This document shows positions 9,878 to 19,673 of a stretch of DNA of 64,000 nt, piece after piece. The notes beneath the pieces were generated by a model. It was not told the origin of the DNA and searched no databases. It was given only the letters and a program-made list of their open reading frames with translations. Made by a program: the position numbers and the translations under genes. The DNA is from a virus (Duplodnaviria > Heunggongvirae > Uroviricota > Caudoviricetes), in IMG/VR virus record IMGVR_UViG_3300023203_000736; one strand, given 5' to 3'. The stretch's first letter is position 1; the number at the start of each line of letters is the position of its first letter.

Positions 9878-9949
9878 AGCCAGCGGCAGGGGTCGAACCT
9901 GCAACCTGCTGATTACAAGTCAGCCGCTCTTCCGTTGAGCTACACTGGC
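9878..9949 (-). tRNA. tRNA-Thr (anticodon TGT).
   Basis: Hand-folded as GCCAGTG-TA-GCTC-AACGGAA-GAGC-G-GCTGA-CTTGTAA-TCAGC-AGGTT-GCAGG-TTCGACC-CCTGC-CGCTGGC-T. The acceptor stem has 7 bp with one G-U pair. The D, anticodon and T arms are canonical. Confidence 0.8.
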
Positions 9950-13186: not shown

Positions 13187-15757
13187 TCACATCATTTCCG
13201 GCGCGCGGATTTTGACCTTTTCCGCTCCGTCCTTCTTCTCAGCCCAGTTGGCCATCTCCTCGAACCAGGACATGCCGATCAGCGGCACCTTGTCACGGTA
13301 GGACTCGACGACACGGCGAACCGTTGCCGTCACCTGCTTCACGACGCTCGGGTGCGTGCTGCACATGAGTTCGTCGTGGACGTTCATCGGGCCGACGAGA
13401 AGCTCATGGATTCCCGCCGGTTGGATGTCCCAGATTGCCCGCTGCACGGCCTTCGTGATCTGGCCGCCAGGCGATTGAATCTCATGGTTGGCCGCCGCTC
13501 GCATGTTGGCGGCTTGAATCTGGAAGGCGGCTCCATACAAGGCGCTGGCGACGGCACCGCCGGCGGTCTGAATCCTGTCACTGCGATGAACCTTGACTGG
13601 GTGGTTCCGCCAGCCTTTGGGCGGCTTCCGAGCAAGCTCAAACAGCGCCCGGCAAATCTTGTTCTCCAAAGTGAAGTAGCGGCGGAATCCCAGGAAGCTC
13701 TCGACAAACTCGGCCGGTTCGTCCCACACAACCTGCGAGCCGATGCCTCCGGGTTGCTTCATCGAGCAGAACTTCTTTATCGTCCGCTCGCGGGCCTTGC
13801 CGATGCCCTTGTACCGATTGGCCCATTCCTCGTGAGCCTTCCTGGCTTGCGCCTCGCTGATGCTCAGGTTGCGTTGCAGCGTCTTTTCGTTGCCACCGTA
13901 AATCTCAGCGAAGACGCCGCTCTTGCCCTTCTTGTACTTCTCCTTGTCCGCGACCACTTCCTCATAGCTGCAATCGAAGAGAACCATGCCGAAGAGGGCG
14001 TGTATCTTTTTGGTTCCAATGCCGGTCCCATCGCACTCCTCGCACTCATGTGTGCCAGTGCCGTGGCACTTTCGGCACTTCTTCGAGTGGCACTTGCCTG
14101 TGCCGTTACACTCGATGCAAGGTGCCTTCGTTATGAGGGTCTTACGAATCTCAGGGTCGTTGTAGACCGCATCCGCAATCGTGACCTCGAAGCTATCAAA
14201 GTCGCCGCCGCAGAGGTTGTAACCCGGCCATGCCAGGGGAAACATGCAGCGGACTTCATCCGAACCCTTGATGCCTTGGGCATTCAGACCATCGCCGCCG
14301 CTCATGCGGTTGCTGAGCGTGCCCACGATGTTGAAGCTCGCGTGGAACTTGCCAGCGAAGATCAGCTTGGTGAAAAGCTCGACCTCCTTGACCGCGTGCT
14401 TGACCGTCAATAGTTCCTTGGCTCGCACGGCGGCAGGATGTTCCTGACCGGCGGTAAGGTGGCCGAGTCCGTTACATCGCTTGCAGATGCCGTCTTTCAG
14501 TCGGCCAGTTCCGCCGCACTTCAGGCAGTGCTCATGGACATGGATTCCATCCCAAGCCTCCACGCCCGCCGTACCGATCTCGTCTTCGTCATCGTCATCT
14601 TCATCCTCGATGACCTTGTATTTGGTTGTGGCTTCCAGGTTCTGCTTCTTCGTCGATTCCTGAATTTTGAGGCTCTCAATGTCGTCCATGACCTCCATCA
14701 GGTAGGCCCGGACGGCGGCCGGCTTGTTGATGTTCACGGGCGAGGCGGCGACCACCGCCTTCGCCTTCTCCAGCAAGCCCTCCATGCCCTCCACGTTGAT
14801 TGTGAAGCCACGCCAGCGAATCACCGGGACCATGCAGGCGAGAATCGAATCGTCGTCGCCCGGCGTCGGATAGCCAAAGTGCTTATCGAGCGCCCGCGTG
14901 TAAACGATGTCGTCCGTCGCGTAGTCCCGAGCGTCCGGGCGGTTAGCCCAGTGCTCGATGAAATGATGAATGACTGCGGGCCAGGCTCGGCCGGCGAGCT
15001 TCTGCTTGCCGTCCTTTTCCGACCATACTTCCCAGTTCTTTTCAGGGCTGCTCACCGCCAGGGCGGTTGGAGCATAGCCGACTTCGTAGGGCCGCCACGC
15101 TGGATCAGGTTCGACATCCTTGTAGTGGTACTTCGGGGTCAATCCCATCGCGTGTTCAGCAAGGAACTTCAAGCCGCCCGCCGGATTGAATCTCAGGCAT
15201 ACGTCCTTGAAGTCCTCATCCACCAATCCGTCGCGGTTGCGACGATCGAACACCTGCCACTTCGGGGCGTCCTTGTCCGCACTCTTGGCGAAGTAGATGT
15301 CGTCAAGCTCGATGCGTTGCTCCAACCCCTGCGCCAACGCATACGCCAGCGCGGTGGGCACCTTCCGTATCCTGATGTCCTCACGAGCCATCAGGCTTTG
15401 GTACGGTCCCTTACGGGAGTGCAACAGCAGGTCAAGGGCGCTGGCCGGCTTCACGCAGGGGCCGTCCTGCCCTTTTGGCTCCAGCAGGGCAATCTCCTCG
15501 ATATGCTCGCAAGGAATCCAACTGGGATCAGCCAGGCGAAACGTCGTGTAGGTCTTGACGATATGGAACCAGTCGAAAGCCAGGTTGAAGCCGACAACCG
15601 TGTGTTCACACAGCCACTCGATCAGCGCAAGGGTCTCGCGGATCGGCCGTCGCCAGACTTCGTACAATGCAATAGGGCCTTCTCCCTCCGCATACTGGAG
15701 GAGCACCATCTGCGAGTGTAGTCCGCAGGTTTCTGTATCAAGGTAGACTTTGCTCAT
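13187..15757 (-). CDS. Family A DNA polymerase with 3'-5' exonuclease and two inserted DnaJ-type zinc-finger arrays.
   Basis: Exo I is YLDTETCG. Pol motif A is CGGDFDSFEV, motif B is KSGVFAEIYGGN and motif C is NVHDELM. The inserts are CLKCGGTG/CKRCNGLG (near 14461-14527) and CIECNGTG/CRKCHGTG/CEECDGTG (near 14023-14119). Confidence 0.85.
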   Translation of the reverse strand: MSKVYLDTETCGLHSQMVLLQYAEGEGPIALYEVWRRPIRETLALIEWLCEHTVVGFNLAFDWFHIVKTYTTFRLADPSWIPCEHIEEIALLEPKGQDGPCVKPASALDLLLHSRKGPYQSLMAREDIRIRKVPTALAYALAQGLEQRIELDDIYFAKSADKDAPKWQVFDRRNRDGLVDEDFKDVCLRFNPAGGLKFLAEHAMGLTPKYHYKDVEPDPAWRPYEVGYAPTALAVSSPEKNWEVWSEKDGKQKLAGRAWPAVIHHFIEHWANRPDARDYATDDIVYTRALDKHFGYPTPGDDDSILACMVPVIRWRGFTINVEGMEGLLEKAKAVVAASPVNINKPAAVRAYLMEVMDDIESLKIQESTKKQNLEATTKYKVIEDEDDDDEDEIGTAGVEAWDGIHVHEHCLKCGGTGRLKDGICKRCNGLGHLTAGQEHPAAVRAKELLTVKHAVKEVELFTKLIFAGKFHASFNIVGTLSNRMSGGDGLNAQGIKGSDEVRCMFPLAWPGYNLCGGDFDSFEVTIADAVYNDPEIRKTLITKAPCIECNGTGKCHSKKCRKCHGTGTHECEECDGTGIGTKKIHALFGMVLFDCSYEEVVADKEKYKKGKSGVFAEIYGGNEKTLQRNLSISEAQARKAHEEWANRYKGIGKARERTIKKFCSMKQPGGIGSQVVWDEPAEFVESFLGFRRYFTLENKICRALFELARKPPKGWRNHPVKVHRSDRIQTAGGAVASALYGAAFQIQAANMRAAANHEIQSPGGQITKAVQRAIWDIQPAGIHELLVGPMNVHDELMCSTHPSVVKQVTATVRRVVESYRDKVPLIGMSWFEEMANWAEKKDGAEKVKIRAPEMM

Positions 15758-16300: not shown

Positions 16301-17935
16301 CTAGTTGCGAATGAAGTCCGCCATCAAGGCAGGGCAGGATGCGTCGAATCCGACGACATCCAACATGCCGGCGTCGTTCGGGTCGGCGATCGTAAACCCG
16401 GTGGCCGTCATGCCAACGACAATCAGCTTGGCATTGATGCCCGTGGCCTGACGGTACTGCATGAGGGCCTGGCTGGGATGGATGTGCCCAGCCCAGGTCT
16501 CATTGTCCGTGTAGACCACGAAAGCATCGACTTCGAGCCGATTCTTGAGGGCATAGATCATCGGGAGAGCGCAGTCGGTGCCGCCCATCGGAATCTGCTC
16601 GATCGCCTGGATCACGCCGTTGAGACCCTTCCGTTTCGAGATGTCCACGGGCACCAGTTCGTGCGAGAAGCCGACCACGTGAGTCTGCGGCTCGACCTTC
16701 TGAGTCACCATCGACATGCAGGCTGAAGCCTTTCGGGCGTCCAGGTGCGTGCCGGCTAGGTGCTCCCAACCCATCGACCCGGACACGTCCAGGGCCAGCA
16801 AGTGCCGCTTGCCGGTCGGCTCGACGGTATCGAAGGCCGCGTAGAAGGCGTCCTCCAAGGCGTCGGTGATCTGGGGCACCGGCTGCCACGTCAGGCTGCC
16901 TTTGACGCCGTGGCCGCTACCATAGGTGTCGGCCGCGATCAGGATAGACAGCGGATGCACGCGAGCGCCTTTGAGCCGCTCCTTGTTCGTGAGCGTGTCG
17001 CACACCAGCTTCGTCGCCAACGACAGCGGTTTGAGCAGGCCAACGCTGGTCATCTTGCCGAGGTTCCGAATCATGGCCGTGGGCGGCAGATTCGGTAGCA
17101 AGGCGTCCCAAACCTTCGGGTTGCCCAGCAGCGTGTTGGGCACGTGTTCCAGGGTCACGCCATAATTCTGAATCAACTGGATGGCTGCCTTCTCGTCGGC
17201 AGTACCGAGCTTGTTGATCTCGTTAAAGCCAGCAATGAGGGCCAGCGCCTGACCGCCGTAGGCCACAGCGAACCCGGCGCTCCGACCGTTGGTGTATGCC
17301 TCTGGCAGGGTTCCGTGCGTGAGCCAACGATAGATCGCGTTCCGTTGCGAATCAGTTGTCTTCGGATGGCTCAGCCGCAGCACATCGCGGTGCGTGTAGC
17401 CGGCGCGGTTACGGTACTTCGTAACCTGATAGGCCAGCTTATCCGCAGGCTTGGCGTTGTACCAAGCCGCAACCGCCTCACGCAGGCCACGGCCCCAGCC
17501 GCGCAGTTCCTTGCAGTTGGCGACGAACTGGAACAGGTGGGTCGCCGTGCGGCAGACGCGAGGCATCGCGGCCAAGGCTCGATGCCGGAGGTAGCCCTGG
17601 TCCTGCTGGCTCGCCAGCAAAGCCAGGGCGAAGATTGCAGGATCGTTCTTTGGAGCACGTCCCAACTCGCTGATCGCGGCGATCGTCTCGACGGCGCGAA
17701 TGGCGTCGGTCTTCCCGCATTCAATCACCACGTTGGCATTGTCGGCCGTCAACTGCTGCTCGCCCACATAGTAGGTGCCGCCCTCGCTGCCAAGGATCAG
17801 GAACCGCTCCAGACGGCTCCAGCAATCGAGAGTGTGGCTGTAGCCGCCGGCGCTGTTCTCCGCCTGGCGCTTGCCGGGAATCGGCCGGCTCTGCGGAGTA
17901 ACTCGGGACGACACATGCTTGGCAAGGGTCTGCAT
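16301..17935 (-). CDS. rsr: Ro60 ortholog Rsr (TROVE domain plus C-terminal vWA/MIDAS).
   Basis: [22 protein letters not shown] and PAIFALALL are colinear with human Ro60 [22 protein letters not shown] and PMLFALAIC. C-terminal [11 protein letters not shown] is a DxSxS MIDAS motif. Confidence 0.9.
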   Translation of the reverse strand: [544 protein letters not shown]

Positions 17936-17959
17936 CGAACGATCTCCAGGGTAGAAGGA

Positions 17960-18019
17960 TTGGGCAAACAGTTGCCGTGGGCGTCATCATTGCCAGATAA
18001 CCCACGCGCTTCGGCCCAA
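17960..18019 (-). ncRNA. Y-RNA-like stem-loop 4 (Ro-binding-type helix with bulged C), 25 nt upstream of the rsr ATG.
   Basis: Minus strand reads UUGGGC-C-GAAG...CGUGGG-loop(UUAUCUGGCAAUGAUGACG)-CCCACG...GUUU-GCCCAA. The lower helix TTGGGC/GCCCAA has a bulged C followed by GAA/UUU. Confidence 0.45.
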
Positions 18020-18026
18020 TGTTTTG

Positions 18027-18093
18027 CCGGGCAAAGAGCGCCGATCGGTGTTTGTCAACTAAAGGTGAGATAACCGATTCAGCTTCGGCCCGG
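18027..18093 (-). ncRNA. Y-RNA-like stem-loop 3.
   Basis: CCGGGC-C-GAAG-CUGA-AUCGG-loop(UUAUCUCACCUUUAGUUGACAAACA)-CCGAU-CGGCGCU-CUUU-GCCCGG. The helix has 11 bp with a single bulged C. GGGCCGAAG..GUUAUCUCA matches vertebrate Y RNA GGUCCGAAGG..GUUAUCUCA. Confidence 0.5.
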
Positions 18094-18095
18094 AG

Positions 18096-18226
18096 GCACG
18101 CCGGTAGGACTTGAACCTACGACCACAGGTTCCCATTGTGATAACGCTCCCAATTCGGCCCATCAGGCAAGGGACTTGGAAGCGGTTTTCTGATACCTGT
18201 GCTCTGACCAACTGAGCTACGGCGTA
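18096..18226 (-). ncRNA. tRNA-like / Y-RNA chimera A (YrlA-like).
   Basis: Acceptor TACGCCG/CGGCGTG, D-arm GCTC-AGTTGGTCA-GAGC and T-arm GTAGG-TTCAAGT-CCTAC are present. The anticodon position is occupied by a ~65-nt insert that contains UGGGCCGAAUUGGGAGCGUUAUC. Confidence 0.55.
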
Positions 18227-18235
18227 CATATAAGC

Positions 18236-18357
18236 GGACACCGGCGGGAGTCGAACCCGCAACACCCCGTTATCAGCGGATAACGCTTTGCCTTCGGCCC
18301 AAGGGGCAAGGGATGGAAAGCGCGTCTTAGGTGCTTTGCCGATTAAGCTACGGCGTC
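18236..18357 (-). ncRNA. tRNA-like / Y-RNA chimera B (YrlA-like).
   Basis: Acceptor GACGCCG/CGGTGTC, D-arm GCTT-AATCGGCA-AAGC and T-arm GCGGG-TTCGACT-CCCGC are present. The insert CUUUCCAUCCCUUGCCCCUUGGGCCGAAGGCAAAGCGUUAUC has 17 of 23 nt identical to the hY1 motif UGGUCCGAAGGUAGUGAGUUAUC. Confidence 0.55.
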
Positions 18358-18370
18358 CACAATCGTCCCT

Positions 18371-18408
18371 CCTTTGGATGACGTAGCTCAATTCGCTTTC
18401 CGTTCAAC
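18371..18408 (-). promoter_or_regulatory. Conserved 38-nt element R1. It starts at the ParB-like stop codon and lies immediately 5' of Y-RNA chimera B.
   Basis: Minus strand: TGAACGGAAAGCGAATTGAGCTACGTCATCCAAAGGAGG. It is nearly identical to R2 at 24421-24458. Confidence 0.4.
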
Positions 18409-19204
18409 TTTTGTCCCGTTTTGCCGATTCGATGTCGTGATCGAGTTCTTCGTCGTTGATATATCCCGCACACCACGCTCCAAACCGCGTAACCAGTCCG
18501 CCCAGACCGGCTTCGAGCAATTGCCCGATGCGGGCATTGATCTCTTCCTTGCCGCGCCGATAGCGAAATGTCCTCCGATACCTGGGATTGACGTTGATCT
18601 TACGCTTGTTCTTGCCGCGAGCCGCGATGATCTCGTTCGCGGCTTGAATCTGCTCATCAGGCGGCAGCTTCACCAAGGCGTCAACGTCGAGCAGCGTCAG
18701 CATACGAGCGGCGACCTTCTCGCGGAGTTCCTCGGGAAGCTCCATGATCCGAAGCCGCTGATGTACCCAACGTGTATCCCGATTCATTTCCTGGGCAATC
18801 GCCCGAAGACTTGCACCCTTCGGAAACCGCCTGGCGATTGCCTGTGCCTGTTCAAGAGGATTGAGGTCTTCGCGTTCCAGGTTCTCCGTGAGGTTCAGAA
18901 TCTCGGCCGCCCGATCGGTGAGGCCCCGCCGGATGTTCGCCGGAATGCCGGTCCATCTCAGAAACGTCTTGACCGCCGCCAGACGACGGAAACCCGCAAC
19001 CAAGCGATACGGCTCCACAAAGCCGGCTTGGCTGTCCTCGCGCTGTTGAAGAATCACCGGAATTTCAAGTCCCGCCTGCGCGATATTGTCCGCTAGCCCC
19101 TTGACGGACTGAAATGTAAACGCAGTGCGGCAGTTGAAGTCGGGATCAACCCAGATGTCGGTGAGCGGAACGTCGTACACGTCATAGCGACTAAGGCGTT
19201 CCAT
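18404..19204 (-). CDS. ParB-like nuclease-domain protein.
   Basis: LVAGFRRLAAV is the GxRR ParB-box. Start is taken at MERLSRYDVY (19204), because the longer ORF runs over tRNA-Asn. Confidence 0.65.
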   Translation of the reverse strand: MERLSRYDVYDVPLTDIWVDPDFNCRTAFTFQSVKGLADNIAQAGLEIPVILQQREDSQAGFVEPYRLVAGFRRLAAVKTFLRWTGIPANIRRGLTDRAAEILNLTENLEREDLNPLEQAQAIARRFPKGASLRAIAQEMNRDTRWVHQRLRIMELPEELREKVAARMLTLLDVDALVKLPPDEQIQAANEIIAARGKNKRKINVNPRYRRTFRYRRGKEEINARIGQLLEAGLGGLVTRFGAWCAGYINDEELDHDIESAKRDKS

Positions 19205-19252
19205 AGATGCCTCGGTAGACGAAAAACGGCCCGACCGAAGCCGGGCCAAAAG

Positions 19253-19325
19253 CTGCATCGCCTGGAGTCGAACCAGGAACCACAGCATTAACAGTGCCGC
19301 GCTCTACCATTTGAGCTACGATGCA
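19253..19325 (-). tRNA. tRNA-Asn (anticodon GTT).
   Basis: TGCATCG-TA-GCTC-AAATGGTA-GAGC-G-CGGCA-CTGTTAA-TGCTG-TGGTT-CCTGG-TTCGACT-CCAGG-CGATGCA-G. All arms are canonical. Confidence 0.85.
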
Positions 19326-19331
19326 ATGGGG

Positions 19332-19673
19332 CTAACTCAGGGTGTCGGTAACGAGCGAATCAAGCGGCACTCCCGTCGAGACCACGCATTCCCTGCGCGG
19401 AAAGGGGATGATGTATTCGCGGTCCTCCGGTTCCTCACCAGGACCAGGGGCCGTCAGGGCTTTGACGCCCTCTTTGCCGACCGGCTCATACGTCTCGCGG
19501 AAGACGTCGTCCCTGCAAGGGTAGAGTTCGTCCTTGACGCCCTGGACAATCCAATCGCCAGGCTCAGCGATCAAGTCATGGCCGTGGAGCGTCTGGCTTC
19601 CTGGGATCACGACCCGTTGCATGACGCGCTCGGCATTGACAACCACTGGTTTCTTGCGGAAGGCAGCAGGCAT
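19332..19673 (-). CDS. Hypothetical protein.
   Basis: Start MPAAFRKKPVVVNAERV. It ends 7 nt from tRNA-Asn. Confidence 0.4.
   Translation of the reverse strand: MPAAFRKKPVVVNAERVMQRVVIPGSQTLHGHDLIAEPGDWIVQGVKDELYPCRDDVFRETYEPVGKEGVKALTAPGPGEEPEDREYIIPFPRRECVVSTGVPLDSLVTDTLS

What the first reader, a model, noticed from the sequence alone, without database searches (positions are those of the whole stretch)
17960..18093. Two bulged-C Ro-binding-type stem-loops sit in the Rsr 5' leader (possible autoregulation)
Stem-loop 3 folds as CCGGGC-C-GAAG / CUUU-GCCCGG. That is 11 bp with a single bulged C, the hallmark of the Ro60-binding helix of Y RNAs. An AUCGG/CCGAU upper stem follows, with a 25-nt loop containing GUUAUCUCA. 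Stem-loop 4 (UUGGGC-C-GAA / UUU-GCCCAA, then CGUGGG/CCCACG) ends 25 nt before the rsr ATG. If these are part of the rsr mRNA rather than separately processed RNAs, Rsr could bind its own leader. That would be a feedback mechanism not, to my knowledge, described for Ro60 orthologs.
Basis: inference. Interest (0 to 1): 0.7.

Follow-up and report, generated by a model that had tools for sequence, protein, structure and literature searches.

The report
Phage Y RNA genes upstream of rsr
The two stem-loops are real and strongly conserved, but they are best read as two small Y RNA genes (partner RNAs of the phage's Ro60-like protein) transcribed together with that protein's gene, a known arrangement, and not as a special self-regulating leader.

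Summary
Both hairpins exist as described, on the minus strand: SL3 at 18094..18026 and SL4 at 18020..17959. SL4 ends 24 nt before the rsr ATG. A covariance model built only from other phage loci finds exactly these two sites in the 64-kb window (E about 3-5e-8).

The same hairpin type gives 109 matches in 50 of 80 viral rsr loci. All lie on the rsr strand, in arrays of 1-5. 94.5% of cells are paired, and 14 of 16 pairs show compensatory changes.

The consensus is GGGC-C-GAAG / upper stem / GGUUAUC loop / CUUGCCC. This is the Ro60-binding helix of Y RNAs.

In 19 loci the last hairpin lies 16-39 nt from the start codon, too close for a promoter, so co-transcription with rsr is very likely. In 10 loci the hairpins lie downstream of rsr, and in others they are far upstream. 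Some start right at a consensus promoter. The apical loops are under purifying selection.

These are therefore Y RNA genes in an rsr operon. Comparable cases are Thermus phage phiLo Yrl1/Yrl2, Mycobacterium smegmatis YrlA/YrlB and the Salmonella rsr-yrlBA-rtcBA operon.

Autoregulation is not excluded, but nothing here supports it. This is a new member of a known kind, of modest interest.

The parts
18026..18094 (-). SL3: a simple hairpin-type Y RNA gene. Lower Ro-binding helix 18093-18083 / 18036-18027 with bulged C18087. Upper stem. GUUAUC at 18074-18069. 25-nt conserved loop.
   Evidence: R1 58.7 bits. Leave-out R2 E 4.5e-8. Orthologs in L001, L002 and L204 are 87-93% identical and show a compensatory C-G to U-A change in the upper stem.
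17959..18020 (-). SL4: a simple hairpin-type Y RNA gene. Lower helix 18020-18009 / 17968-17959 with bulged C18013. Upper stem CGUGGG/CCCACG. GUUAUC at 18001-17996.
   Evidence: R1 68.3 bits. R2 E 2.7e-8. Sub-threshold Rfam hit to the nematode stem-bulge (Y-like) family RF01656, 19.9 bits.
18021..18025 (-). Single-stranded A-rich linker (C)AAAAC between SL3 and SL4; a candidate endonucleolytic processing site.
   Evidence: Unpaired probability 0.82-0.98. Spacing between successive hairpins is 5-17 nt in 24 pairs. That processing occurs here is inferred.
17936..17958 (-). Pyrimidine-rich spacer, SD GGAG (17947-17944) and an 8-nt spacer to the rsr ATG. Too short to hold a promoter.
   Evidence: Sequence. 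No promoter-like site in 17700-19500. The same 16-39 nt gap is seen in 19 loci.
16301..17935 (-). rsr, a Ro60 ortholog of 544 aa.
   Evidence: Pfam TROVE and vWA_Ro60. PDB matches: human RO60 1.3e-130, Xenopus Ro60 4e-125, Deinococcus Rsr 2e-120. Equivalents of Xenopus K170, R174 and H187 are conserved.
18096..18226 (-). tRNA-like Y RNA unit 2. It has a full acceptor stem, D-arm and T-arm. A 61-nt insert in the anticodon loop forms a closed (circularly permuted) Ro-type helix, CUUGCC-UGAU-GGGCCGAA, followed by GUUAUC. Its 3' end lies 2 nt from SL3.
   Evidence: Rfam tRNA 47.5 bits with a 61-nt insert. Insert folds. Regex census.
18235..18358 (-). tRNA-like Y RNA unit 1. Acceptor stem GGACGCC/GGUGUCC, D-arm and T-arm, with a closed Ro-type helix CUUGCCC-CUU-GGGCCGAAGG followed by GUUAUC.
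   Evidence: Sequence. Insert folds with covarying upper stems in L001 and L002. T-arm matched by the tmRNA and YrlA models.

Best explanation
SL3 and SL4 are two small (about 62-67 nt) Y RNA genes of the simple hairpin type. They are the last two members of a four-gene Y RNA array (two tRNA-like units, then SL3, then SL4) that sits directly upstream of rsr in a tailed phage genome.

Shown:
- The hairpins belong to a widespread, covarying RNA family.
- The family is always on the rsr strand and usually next to rsr.
- Its conserved lower helix (GGGC, bulged C, GAAG / CUUGCCC) is the Ro60-binding helix of Y RNAs.
- The encoded Rsr is a canonical Ro60 ortholog.

Inferred:
1. The array and rsr are made as one precursor transcript, because there is no room for a promoter between SL4 and the SD.
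2. RNase P and RNase Z type processing of the tRNA-like units creates the 5' end of SL3, 2 nt away.
3. Endonucleolytic cuts in the A-rich and pyrimidine-rich linkers, followed by exonucleolytic trimming, release SL3 and SL4.
4. Newly made Rsr binds the bulged helix on its outer surface and protects the RNAs.
5. The distinct conserved loops of SL3 and SL4 recruit or gate different partners, for example host PNPase as in the RYPER complex, during infection.

Any effect of Rsr binding on translation of its own still-unprocessed mRNA would be a side consequence of this layout, not the reason for the hairpins.
For: - Family and structure. There are 109 matches at E<=0.01 in 50 of 80 viral rsr loci plus the window, all on the rsr strand. 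94.5% of cells are paired, 14 of 16 pairs have compensatory changes, and the covariation score is 0.749 against 0.238 for shuffles.
- Leave-out model. It finds only SL3 and SL4 in 64 kb.
- Conserved nucleotides. The bulged C is present in 106/109, the G after it in 108/109, and the UU of UUAUC in 109/109.
- Motif association. GGGCCGA is followed by TTATC in 43/125 same-strand cases and 0/39 opposite-strand cases.
- Position is not fixed. 40 loci have hairpins upstream only, 9 downstream only and 1 both. Gaps to the start codon range from 16 to about 1969 nt. Six loci have a hairpin 6-50 nt after the stop codon.
- Arrays. There are 1-5 copies per locus. Spacing is 5-17 nt for 24 adjacent pairs. 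Only 16-21 of 109 are followed by a T-rich tract.
- Own promoters. In L004, TTGACA-16-TATAAT (12/12) ends 7 nt before hairpin 1. L049 has TTGACA...TATAAT 9 nt before its first hairpin, read by eye.
- Selection on loops. SL3 and SL4 orthologs are 82-93% identical, against 52-64% at rsr third codon positions.
- A further ortholog, L204, has identical architecture.
- Cellular genomes and MAGs show the same arrangement upstream of rsr.
- The Rsr is canonical.
- Literature. M. smegmatis YrlA and YrlB lie upstream of rsr and are processed from one precursor. Deinococcus Yrn2, tRNA-Asp and Yrn1 are made as one polycistronic precursor. The motif is GNCGAAN0-1G, on the same strand and within 4 kb of rsr (PMC4201824). 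Thermus phage phiLo Yrl1 and Yrl2 lie upstream of phiRo60 and bind it, and the CGAA motif is needed for full affinity (PMC12135203). Salmonella has an rsr-yrlBA-rtcBA operon (PMC7790460).
Against: - There is no experimental evidence for this phage: no transcript ends, no Rsr binding, no host known.
- No promoter was recognised upstream of the array in the window, so the transcription unit is undefined.
- SL3 and SL4 do not reach the gathering score of any Rfam family.
- A 216-nt thermodynamic fold that includes the coding start replaces SL4 with alternative pairings. Such long single-sequence folds are unreliable.
- The tight cluster of 16-26 nt gaps to the start codon could reflect a functional coupling and not only genome compaction.
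Confidence: 0.75

Rival explanations
1. Autoregulatory leader. The hairpins stay on the rsr mRNA. Rsr binds SL4 and SL3 in cis and represses, or enhances, its own translation or changes its mRNA stability.
For: - Co-transcription is very likely, since SL4 ends 11 nt from the SD and 24 nt from the ATG.
- The last hairpin lies 16-39 nt from the start codon in 19 loci whose Rsr proteins are 41-82% identical to the window's.
- The site is a perfect copy of the protein's ligand.
- By my own knowledge, a 30S subunit protects mRNA to roughly -35, so a 60-kDa ring bound at -25 to -86 could interfere.
Against: - The position is not conserved. Hairpins lie downstream of rsr in 10 loci and more than 50 nt upstream in 22 loci.
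- There are multiple copies, and two paralogous types with conserved loops.
- The first hairpin in L004 starts at a consensus promoter, as expected for a discrete RNA gene.
- The helix does not overlap the SD or the start codon.
- Gaps of 16-26 nt are about what an SD and its spacer require, and successive hairpins lie just as close to each other (5-17 nt).
- Two key papers contain no mention of autoregulation, and a library search found only incidental co-occurrences.
Confidence: 0.12
2. The hairpins are passive structural elements of the transcript. They could be 5' stabilising hairpins, processing signals that separate the tRNA-like RNAs from the rsr mRNA, or terminators or attenuators, with no specific Rsr binding.
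For: - They are stable GC-rich stems at the 5' side of an mRNA.
- 16-21 of 109 family members are followed by T-rich tracts; L004's third hairpin is followed by CUUUUUAAUUU.
Against: - No T-tract follows SL3 or SL4, and no terminator was called there.
- Near-invariance of the bulged C, GAAG, UUAUC and CUUGCCC is not expected of a generic stabiliser.
- The family is strictly associated with rsr.
Confidence: 0.05
3. The hairpins are chance inverted repeats or degenerate relics of tRNA-like units.
For: The single-sequence z-score for SL4 is only -1.57.
Against: - Leave-out model E values are about 3-5e-8, with no other match in 64 kb.
- There is covariation.
- There is purifying selection relative to synonymous sites.
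Confidence: 0.01

Closest known systems
Thermus phage phiLo Yrl1/Yrl2 with phiRo60 (PMC12135203)
   Same: - It is a phage-encoded Ro60 homolog with two Y RNA-like hairpins in the non-coding region directly upstream of its gene.
- Yrl2 is a single hairpin of about 60 nt with a CGAA motif near its 5' end.
- Binding to the protein has been shown, and CGAA point mutants bind 3-4 fold more weakly.
   Different: - phiRo60 is only distantly related to the window's Rsr (E 1e-5, against 1e-130 for human RO60).
- Nothing in the passages I read describes tRNA-like units in phiLo.
- The window hairpins keep both strands of the metazoan-type helix plus UUAUC.
- I did not scan the phiLo genome with my model.
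Bacterial Y RNAs: M. smegmatis YrlA/YrlB, D. radiodurans Yrn1/Yrn2, Salmonella YrlA/YrlB (PMC4201824, PMC7790460)
   Same: - They are encoded next to rsr on the same strand, upstream in Mycobacterium and Deinococcus.
- They are made from polycistronic precursors.
- They carry the GNCGAAN0-1G motif.
- Each species has one tRNA-like RNA plus at least one plain long hairpin (YrlB or Yrn2).
   Different: - SL3 and SL4 do not match Rfam YrlA, since they have no T-arm or D-arm.
- In Salmonella and Mycobacterium only the 5' strand of the helix is recognisable, whereas here both strands are.
- The tRNA-like neighbours here have the opposite topology to YrlA: open acceptor ends and a closed Ro helix.
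Metazoan Y RNAs and nematode stem-bulge RNAs (Rfam RF00019, RF01656; PMC4726728)
   Same: - The lower stem has a single bulged C in GGNCCGA.
- An internal loop is followed by an upper stem. In SL4 this contains GUG/CAC.
- UUAUC lies at the 5' edge of the loop.
- The 3' strand is ...CACNNCUUGNCC.
- Seven phage hairpins hit RF01656, the best at 37.0 bits against a gathering score of 38.
   Different: - All hits are below the gathering threshold.
- They are transcribed in a phage operon, not as Pol III genes with an oligo-U tail.
- They are shorter (62-67 nt).
- A role in DNA replication is not implied.
Translational operators in the regulator's own mRNA (for example MS2 coat-protein hairpin, T4 gene 32, ribosomal-protein leaders; from my own knowledge)
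   Same: A copy or mimic of the protein's natural RNA ligand sits upstream of the protein's own coding sequence.
   Different: - Known operators overlap or abut the SD or start codon and are positionally conserved.
- Here the helix ends 11 nt before the SD.
- It is multi-copy, and in relatives it can lie after the gene.

Membership tests
Rsr-associated Y RNA, simple hairpin type (YrlB / Yrn2 / Yrl-like) | Encoded close to rsr (within about 4 kb) on the same strand | tested here: met
   SL4 ends 24 nt and SL3 91 nt upstream of the rsr ATG, on the same strand. All 109 family matches are on the rsr strand.
Rsr-associated Y RNA, simple hairpin type (YrlB / Yrn2 / Yrl-like) | 5' and 3' ends pair into a long stem carrying the Ro-binding motif (GNCGAAN0-1G, bulged C) | tested here: met
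   GCCGAAG is present in both hairpins, with bulged C18087 and C18013. The bulged C is conserved in 106/109.
Rsr-associated Y RNA, simple hairpin type (YrlB / Yrn2 / Yrl-like) | Structure conserved in evolution | tested here: met
   14 of 16 pairs have compensatory changes and 94.5% of cells are paired. Controls are far lower. The alignment was fitted to the model, which favours the structure somewhat.
Rsr-associated Y RNA, simple hairpin type (YrlB / Yrn2 / Yrl-like) | Physically bound by Rsr/Ro60 | not testable with these tools
   This is inferred only. The Rsr is a canonical Ro60 with equivalents of Xenopus K170 and R174. That these residues are needed for Y RNA binding is from my memory of the literature.
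Rsr-associated Y RNA, simple hairpin type (YrlB / Yrn2 / Yrl-like) | Accumulates as a discrete small RNA, usually dependent on Rsr | not testable with these tools
   No expression data are available.
YrlA (Rfam RF02553) | tRNA-like domain (T-arm, closed acceptor stem, D-arm) inserted above the Ro-binding stem, with a score at or above the gathering score of 69 bits | tested here: not met
   There is no RF02553 match on 17959-18094 even at E<=10. The only hit, at 42.7 bits, spans 18289-18176 and bridges the two upstream tRNA-like units.
Metazoan Y RNA / nematode sbRNA (RF00019 / RF01656) | Score at or above the Rfam gathering threshold (38 bits for both) | tested here: not met
   SL4 scores 19.9 bits against RF01656. 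The best relative, L002 2848-2912, scores 37.0 bits. The one RF00019 match listed scores 23.8 bits.
Metazoan Y RNA / nematode sbRNA (RF00019 / RF01656) | Bulged-C lower stem, GUG-CAC upper stem and UUAUC loop motif | tested here: met
   SL4 has all three features. SL3 has the lower stem and UUAUC, but its upper stem is AUCGG/CCGAU. The motif definitions come from PMC4726728.
Autoregulatory translational operator in own mRNA | The binding site is part of the mature mRNA of the regulator's gene | tested here: inconclusive
   A shared primary transcript is inferred from the 24-nt gap and the lack of promoter-like or terminator-like sites. The mature 5' end is unknown.
Autoregulatory translational operator in own mRNA | The site overlaps or abuts the SD or start codon, and its position is conserved among homologs | tested here: not met
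   The helix ends 11 nt before the SD. In relatives the nearest hairpin lies 16 to about 1969 nt upstream, or downstream of rsr in 10 loci.

The most novel reading that the evidence does not exclude
A fraction of the precursor is not processed. On it, Rsr bound to SL4 (and SL3), 11 nt from the SD, feeds back on its own translation or mRNA stability. The same hairpins would then serve both as trans-acting Y RNAs and as a cis operator that matches the protein-to-RNA ratio of the phage RNP. This would be the first autoregulatory circuit reported for a Ro60 ortholog.
Probability: 0.15. Interest if true: 0.6.

Novelty: new member of a known kind. Interest (0 to 1): 0.35.

Why it matters
For the finding as stated, the value is mainly corrective. 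A bulged-C hairpin in front of rsr is first of all a Y RNA gene, and Y RNAs embedded in rsr transcripts are already documented.

The comparative work adds three things:
- It gives a usable covariance model for a large, unannotated family of simple hairpin Y RNAs in phages and bacteria: 109 copies in 50 viral loci, with further copies in MAGs of several phyla.
- It shows that these prokaryotic RNAs keep the full metazoan-type signature: both strands of the helix, the bulged C, and UUAUC. Reviews have treated bacterial Y RNAs as non-homologous to eukaryotic ones.
- It shows that the layout forces co-transcription of the RNA partners with the protein. That makes cis-loading or feedback easy to test experimentally, although no host is known for this phage.

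Tried and rejected
- A loose regex search for hairpins returned 650 mostly spurious candidates. I replaced it with covariance models.
- The Rfam gathering-threshold scan found only tRNAs. At the E-value threshold, SL3 and SL4 matched no bacterial Y RNA family.
- The sigma-70 promoter scan found nothing in 17700-19500 of the window, so the promoter of the array is unidentified and the host is unknown.
- I rejected the permuted YrlA reading of the upstream units (Rfam hit 18289-18176). Each unit carries its own covarying closed hairpin and complete acceptor pairing, and single units occur alone in L003 and L005.
- The genome-wide pattern scan is dominated by chance matches. My estimate is roughly 1000 expected for 16 specified bases in 596 Gb. 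Only 20 of the 80 fetched loci had Rsr nearby.
- SL3-specific and SL4-specific patterns found only the contigs of L001 and L002 in IMG/VR. The SL3 pattern found two short metagenome contigs, one of them a new ortholog.
- The 216-nt MFE fold of leader plus ORF start disrupts SL4 and predicts a 4-bp CUUC/GGAG helix over the SD. I do not rely on it.
- The review PMC10870794 is not held.
- I did not use the large protein-database searches or structure prediction, because Rsr identity was already unambiguous.

Full report
**Context.** The window is part of a tailed-phage genome. Terminase, portal, tape-measure, helicase, exonuclease, ParB-like and family A DNA polymerase genes all lie on the minus strand. 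The gene at 16301-17935 (-) is a canonical Ro60 ortholog. It matches Pfam TROVE and vWA_Ro60. It aligns end to end with human RO60 (E 1.3e-130), Xenopus Ro60 (4e-125) and Deinococcus Rsr (2e-120). It is far more distant from the Thermus phage phiRo60 (1e-5). The equivalents of Xenopus K170, R174 and H187 are conserved (TKYRNRAG...LRLSH). That these residues matter for RNA binding is from my own recollection of the literature.

**The observation.**
- SL3 (18093-27): CCGGGC / bulged C18087 / GAAG pairs with CUUU / GCCCGG. This is 10 bp, not 11. A 9-bp upper stem with one bulged A follows, and then a 25-nt loop beginning UUAUCUCA.
- SL4 (18020-17959): AUUGGGC / bulged C18013 / GAA pairs with UUU / GCCCAAU. 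The upper stem is CGUGGG/CCCACG, and the loop begins UUAUC.
- SL4 ends 11 nt before the SD GGAG (17947-17944) and 24 nt before the ATG (17935).
- Folding energies alone are only moderately unusual: z = -2.86, -1.57 and -2.78.

**More than chance.** tblastn-confirmed Rsr homologs in IMG/VR gave 80 viral loci at 41-82% identity. By eye, the regions upstream of rsr in many of them hold tandem hairpins with the same ends and different, complementary middles.
- I aligned 19 of these hairpins (A1). RNAalifold predicted 14 pairs, 9 of them with compensatory changes.
- Covariance model R1 finds exactly two sites in the 64-kb window, SL4 at 68.3 bits and SL3 at 58.7 bits.
- Because R1 contained the window sequences, I built R2 from 12 hairpins of L002-L009 only, excluding the window, L001 and the L002 orthologs. 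R2 again finds only these two sites, at E 2.7e-8 and 4.5e-8.
- Over 80 loci plus the window, R1 gives 109 matches at E<=0.01, every one on the rsr strand.
- On that alignment, 94.5% of cells are paired (shuffles 67.8%), 14 of 16 pairs have changes on both sides, and the covariation score is 0.749. Shuffles give 0.238 and slid partners at most 0.117. The alignment is fitted to the model, which inflates these numbers somewhat.
- Conserved nucleotides: bulged C 106/109, the following G 108/109, the UU of UUAUC 109/109, and the 3' strand C-U-U-G-C-C-C.
- Independently of any model, GGGCCGA is followed by TTATC 12-26 nt later in 43 of 125 same-strand occurrences and 0 of 39 opposite-strand occurrences.

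**What the hairpins are.** The conserved lower helix is the Ro60-binding helix.
- GCCGAAG fits the GNCGAAN0-1G motif that Chen et al. found in bacterial Y RNAs and related to the GGUCCGA contacted by Xenopus Ro60 (PMC4201824).
- In Thermus phage phiLo, the CGAA motif of two hairpins upstream of the phage Ro60 gene is needed for full binding affinity (PMC12135203).
- Among Rfam families, the phage hairpins come closest to nematode stem-bulge RNAs, which are Y RNA homologs, and not to bacterial YrlA. Seven hairpins from five loci hit RF01656, the best at 37.0 bits against a gathering score of 38. One hits Y_RNA at 23.8 bits. SL4 itself scores 19.9 bits. All are below threshold, so I do not file them in those families.
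- The shared features are nevertheless clear: bulged-C lower stem, internal loop, an upper stem ending in GG (GUG/CAC in SL4), and UUAUC. PMC4726728 describes UUAUC and GUG-CAC as hallmarks of vertebrate Y RNAs and sbRNAs, and states that bacterial Y RNAs are not homologous.

**Leader or gene?** Evidence that SL3 and SL4 are transcribed with rsr:
- 24 nt cannot hold a promoter plus an SD.
- No promoter-like or terminator-like site lies between them.
- All family members share the strand of rsr.
- In 19 loci the last hairpin ends 16-39 nt before the start codon (start codons were chosen heuristically).
- Only 16-21 of 109 hairpins are followed by a T-rich tract.

Evidence that they are not primarily a cis-regulatory leader:
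- Position is free. There are 40 loci with hairpins upstream only, 9 downstream only and 1 with both. Six loci have a hairpin 6-50 nt after the rsr stop, and other loci have gaps of 50 to about 1969 nt.
- They form arrays of 1-5 copies, spaced 5-17 nt apart for 24 adjacent pairs. These arrays mix with YrlA-type and tRNA-like Y RNAs.
- In L004 a perfect TTGACA-16-TATAAT promoter ends 7 nt before the first hairpin, so transcription would start at the base of the stem, as for a discrete RNA gene. L049 has the same kind of promoter, read by eye.
- SL3-type and SL4-type hairpins are separate orthologous lineages, and their apical loops are conserved. Identity to the L001 and L002 orthologs is 92.8%/87.0% for SL3 and 90.3%/82.3% for SL4. 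rsr third codon positions are only 63.8%/52.2% identical. SL3 also shows a compensatory C-G to U-A change. A further ortholog from a metagenome has the same architecture. Selection on loops that do not touch the Rsr-binding helix points to trans-acting RNP functions, like the effector-binding loops of other Y RNAs.
- Precedent: M. smegmatis YrlA and YrlB lie upstream of rsr and are 'processed from a single precursor'. Deinococcus Yrn2, tRNA-Asp and Yrn1 form a polycistronic precursor (PMC4201824). Salmonella has an rsr-yrlBA-rtcBA operon (PMC7790460). phiLo has Yrl1 and Yrl2 upstream of phiRo60 (PMC12135203).

**Likely mechanism.** Shown: the family, its structure, its linkage to rsr, and a canonical Rsr. 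The following steps are inferred.
1. One precursor carries unit 1, unit 2, SL3, SL4 and rsr.
2. Unit 2 scores 47.5 bits as a tRNA with a 7-bp acceptor stem. Its 3' end is 2 nt from SL3, a juxtaposition conserved in L001, L002, L005 and L204. tRNA-type 3' processing would therefore generate the 5' end of SL3.
3. The linker CAAAAC (unpaired probability 0.82-0.98) and the pyrimidine-rich spacer after SL4 are candidate endonuclease sites.
4. Rsr binding to the bulged helix protects the released RNAs.
5. The loops then tether or gate partners such as host PNPase.

**Autoregulation.** It remains possible as a by-product. Rsr will meet its ligand on nascent transcripts, and a ring bound at -25 to -86 could affect 30S loading or 5'-end-dependent decay, in either direction. 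Comparative data neither require nor specifically support it. The 16-26 nt gap is about what an SD and its spacer need, and successive hairpins lie just as close to each other. I found no report of Ro60 or Rsr autoregulation.

**Wider distribution.** A 16-base pattern scan of bacterial and archaeal genomes is dominated by chance matches by my estimate. Even so, 20 of 80 fetched loci encode Rsr nearby. R1 found 22 hairpins in 14 loci, and 12 of those loci have an Rsr homolog in the fetched stretch. The hairpins lie upstream of rsr on the same strand. They include Chloroflexota, Armatimonadota, Verrucomicrobia, Gemmatimonadota and Actinomycetota MAGs. Some of these may be prophages or mis-binned phage contigs.

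**Verdict.** This is a new member of a known kind. Interest is modest (0.35). It is raised slightly by the eukaryote-like signature of the family and by the unusual tRNA-like neighbours.

Noticed in passing
window 18358..18235 and 18226..18096 (-); also L001 269-387 and 398-526, L002 2375-2495 and 2506-2634, L003 2299-2422 and 2760-2857, L049 2513-2640, L204 about 315-195 (-): The two tRNA-like units upstream of SL3 have open acceptor ends, a D-arm and a T-arm. The anticodon loop is replaced by a closed Ro-type helix (CUUGCC, a 3-4 nt loop, GGGCCGAA) plus an upper stem and GUUAUC. This is a circular permutation of the YrlA topology. Nine inserts fold alike, with covarying stems such as GCCC/GGGC changing to ACCC/GGGU in L003. 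A strict regex finds 7 modules, all on the rsr strand, all between a D-arm and a T-arm, and none on the other strand. I do not know of a description of this topology.
   Followed up: partly
window 18289..18176 (-): The Rfam YrlA model gives a sub-threshold hit (42.7 bits, gathering score 69). It joins the T-arm of unit 1, the inter-unit linker (read as an acceptor loop) and the D-arm of unit 2. L001 shows the same. This is probably an artefact of the tandem arrangement, but it hints at how YrlA could arise from a tRNA-like dimer.
   Followed up: partly
window 18074-18069 and 18001-17996 (-); alignment A2: GUUAUC directly follows the upper stem in all four Ro-type modules of the window, and the UU is invariant in 109/109 family members. 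UUAUC and GUG-CAC are described as vertebrate Y RNA and nematode sbRNA motifs needed for DNA replication (PMC4726728). Their presence in phage and bacterial Y RNAs suggests an older, Ro-linked role, and homology between prokaryotic and eukaryotic Y RNAs.
   Followed up: partly
L004 2742-2769; L049 about 2330-2358: Consensus sigma-70 promoters (TTGACAAACTGA...TATAAT) end 7-9 nt before the first hairpin of the array. Transcription would therefore start at the base of the Y RNA stem (for L004; by eye for L049).
   Followed up: partly
L006 1912-1969 (+): A sub-threshold match to the type-P1 twister ribozyme (45.6 bits, gathering score 67.2, E 6.4e-7) lies about 1 kb upstream of rsr in a related viral contig.
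   Followed up: no
window 17956-17944 (-): In a 216-nt fold, the SD GGAG is predicted to pair with CUUC in the pyrimidine-rich spacer just after SL4 (unpaired probability 0.03-0.08). Orthologs also have pyrimidine-rich spacers, but the pairing is only 4 bp and not clearly conserved.
   Followed up: partly
window 19325..19253 (-), 19248..19227 (-), 9949..9878 (-): tRNA-Asn(GUU) is immediately followed by a terminator-like hairpin, upstream of the ParB-like gene and the Y RNA array. A second tRNA lies at 9949..9878. The annotated ParB-like ORF start at 19288 overlaps the tRNA, so its true start is probably further downstream.
   Followed up: no
window 16301-17935 (-): The phage Rsr is much closer to human and Xenopus Ro60 and to Deinococcus Rsr (E 1e-120 to 1e-130) than to the structurally characterised Thermus phage phiRo60 (E 1e-5).
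   Followed up: no
window 13187-15757 (-): The family A DNA polymerase ORF has a weak, below-cutoff match to the DnaJ CXXCXGXG zinc-finger repeat at residues 542-568 (26.1 bits, cutoff 32.7).
   Followed up: no
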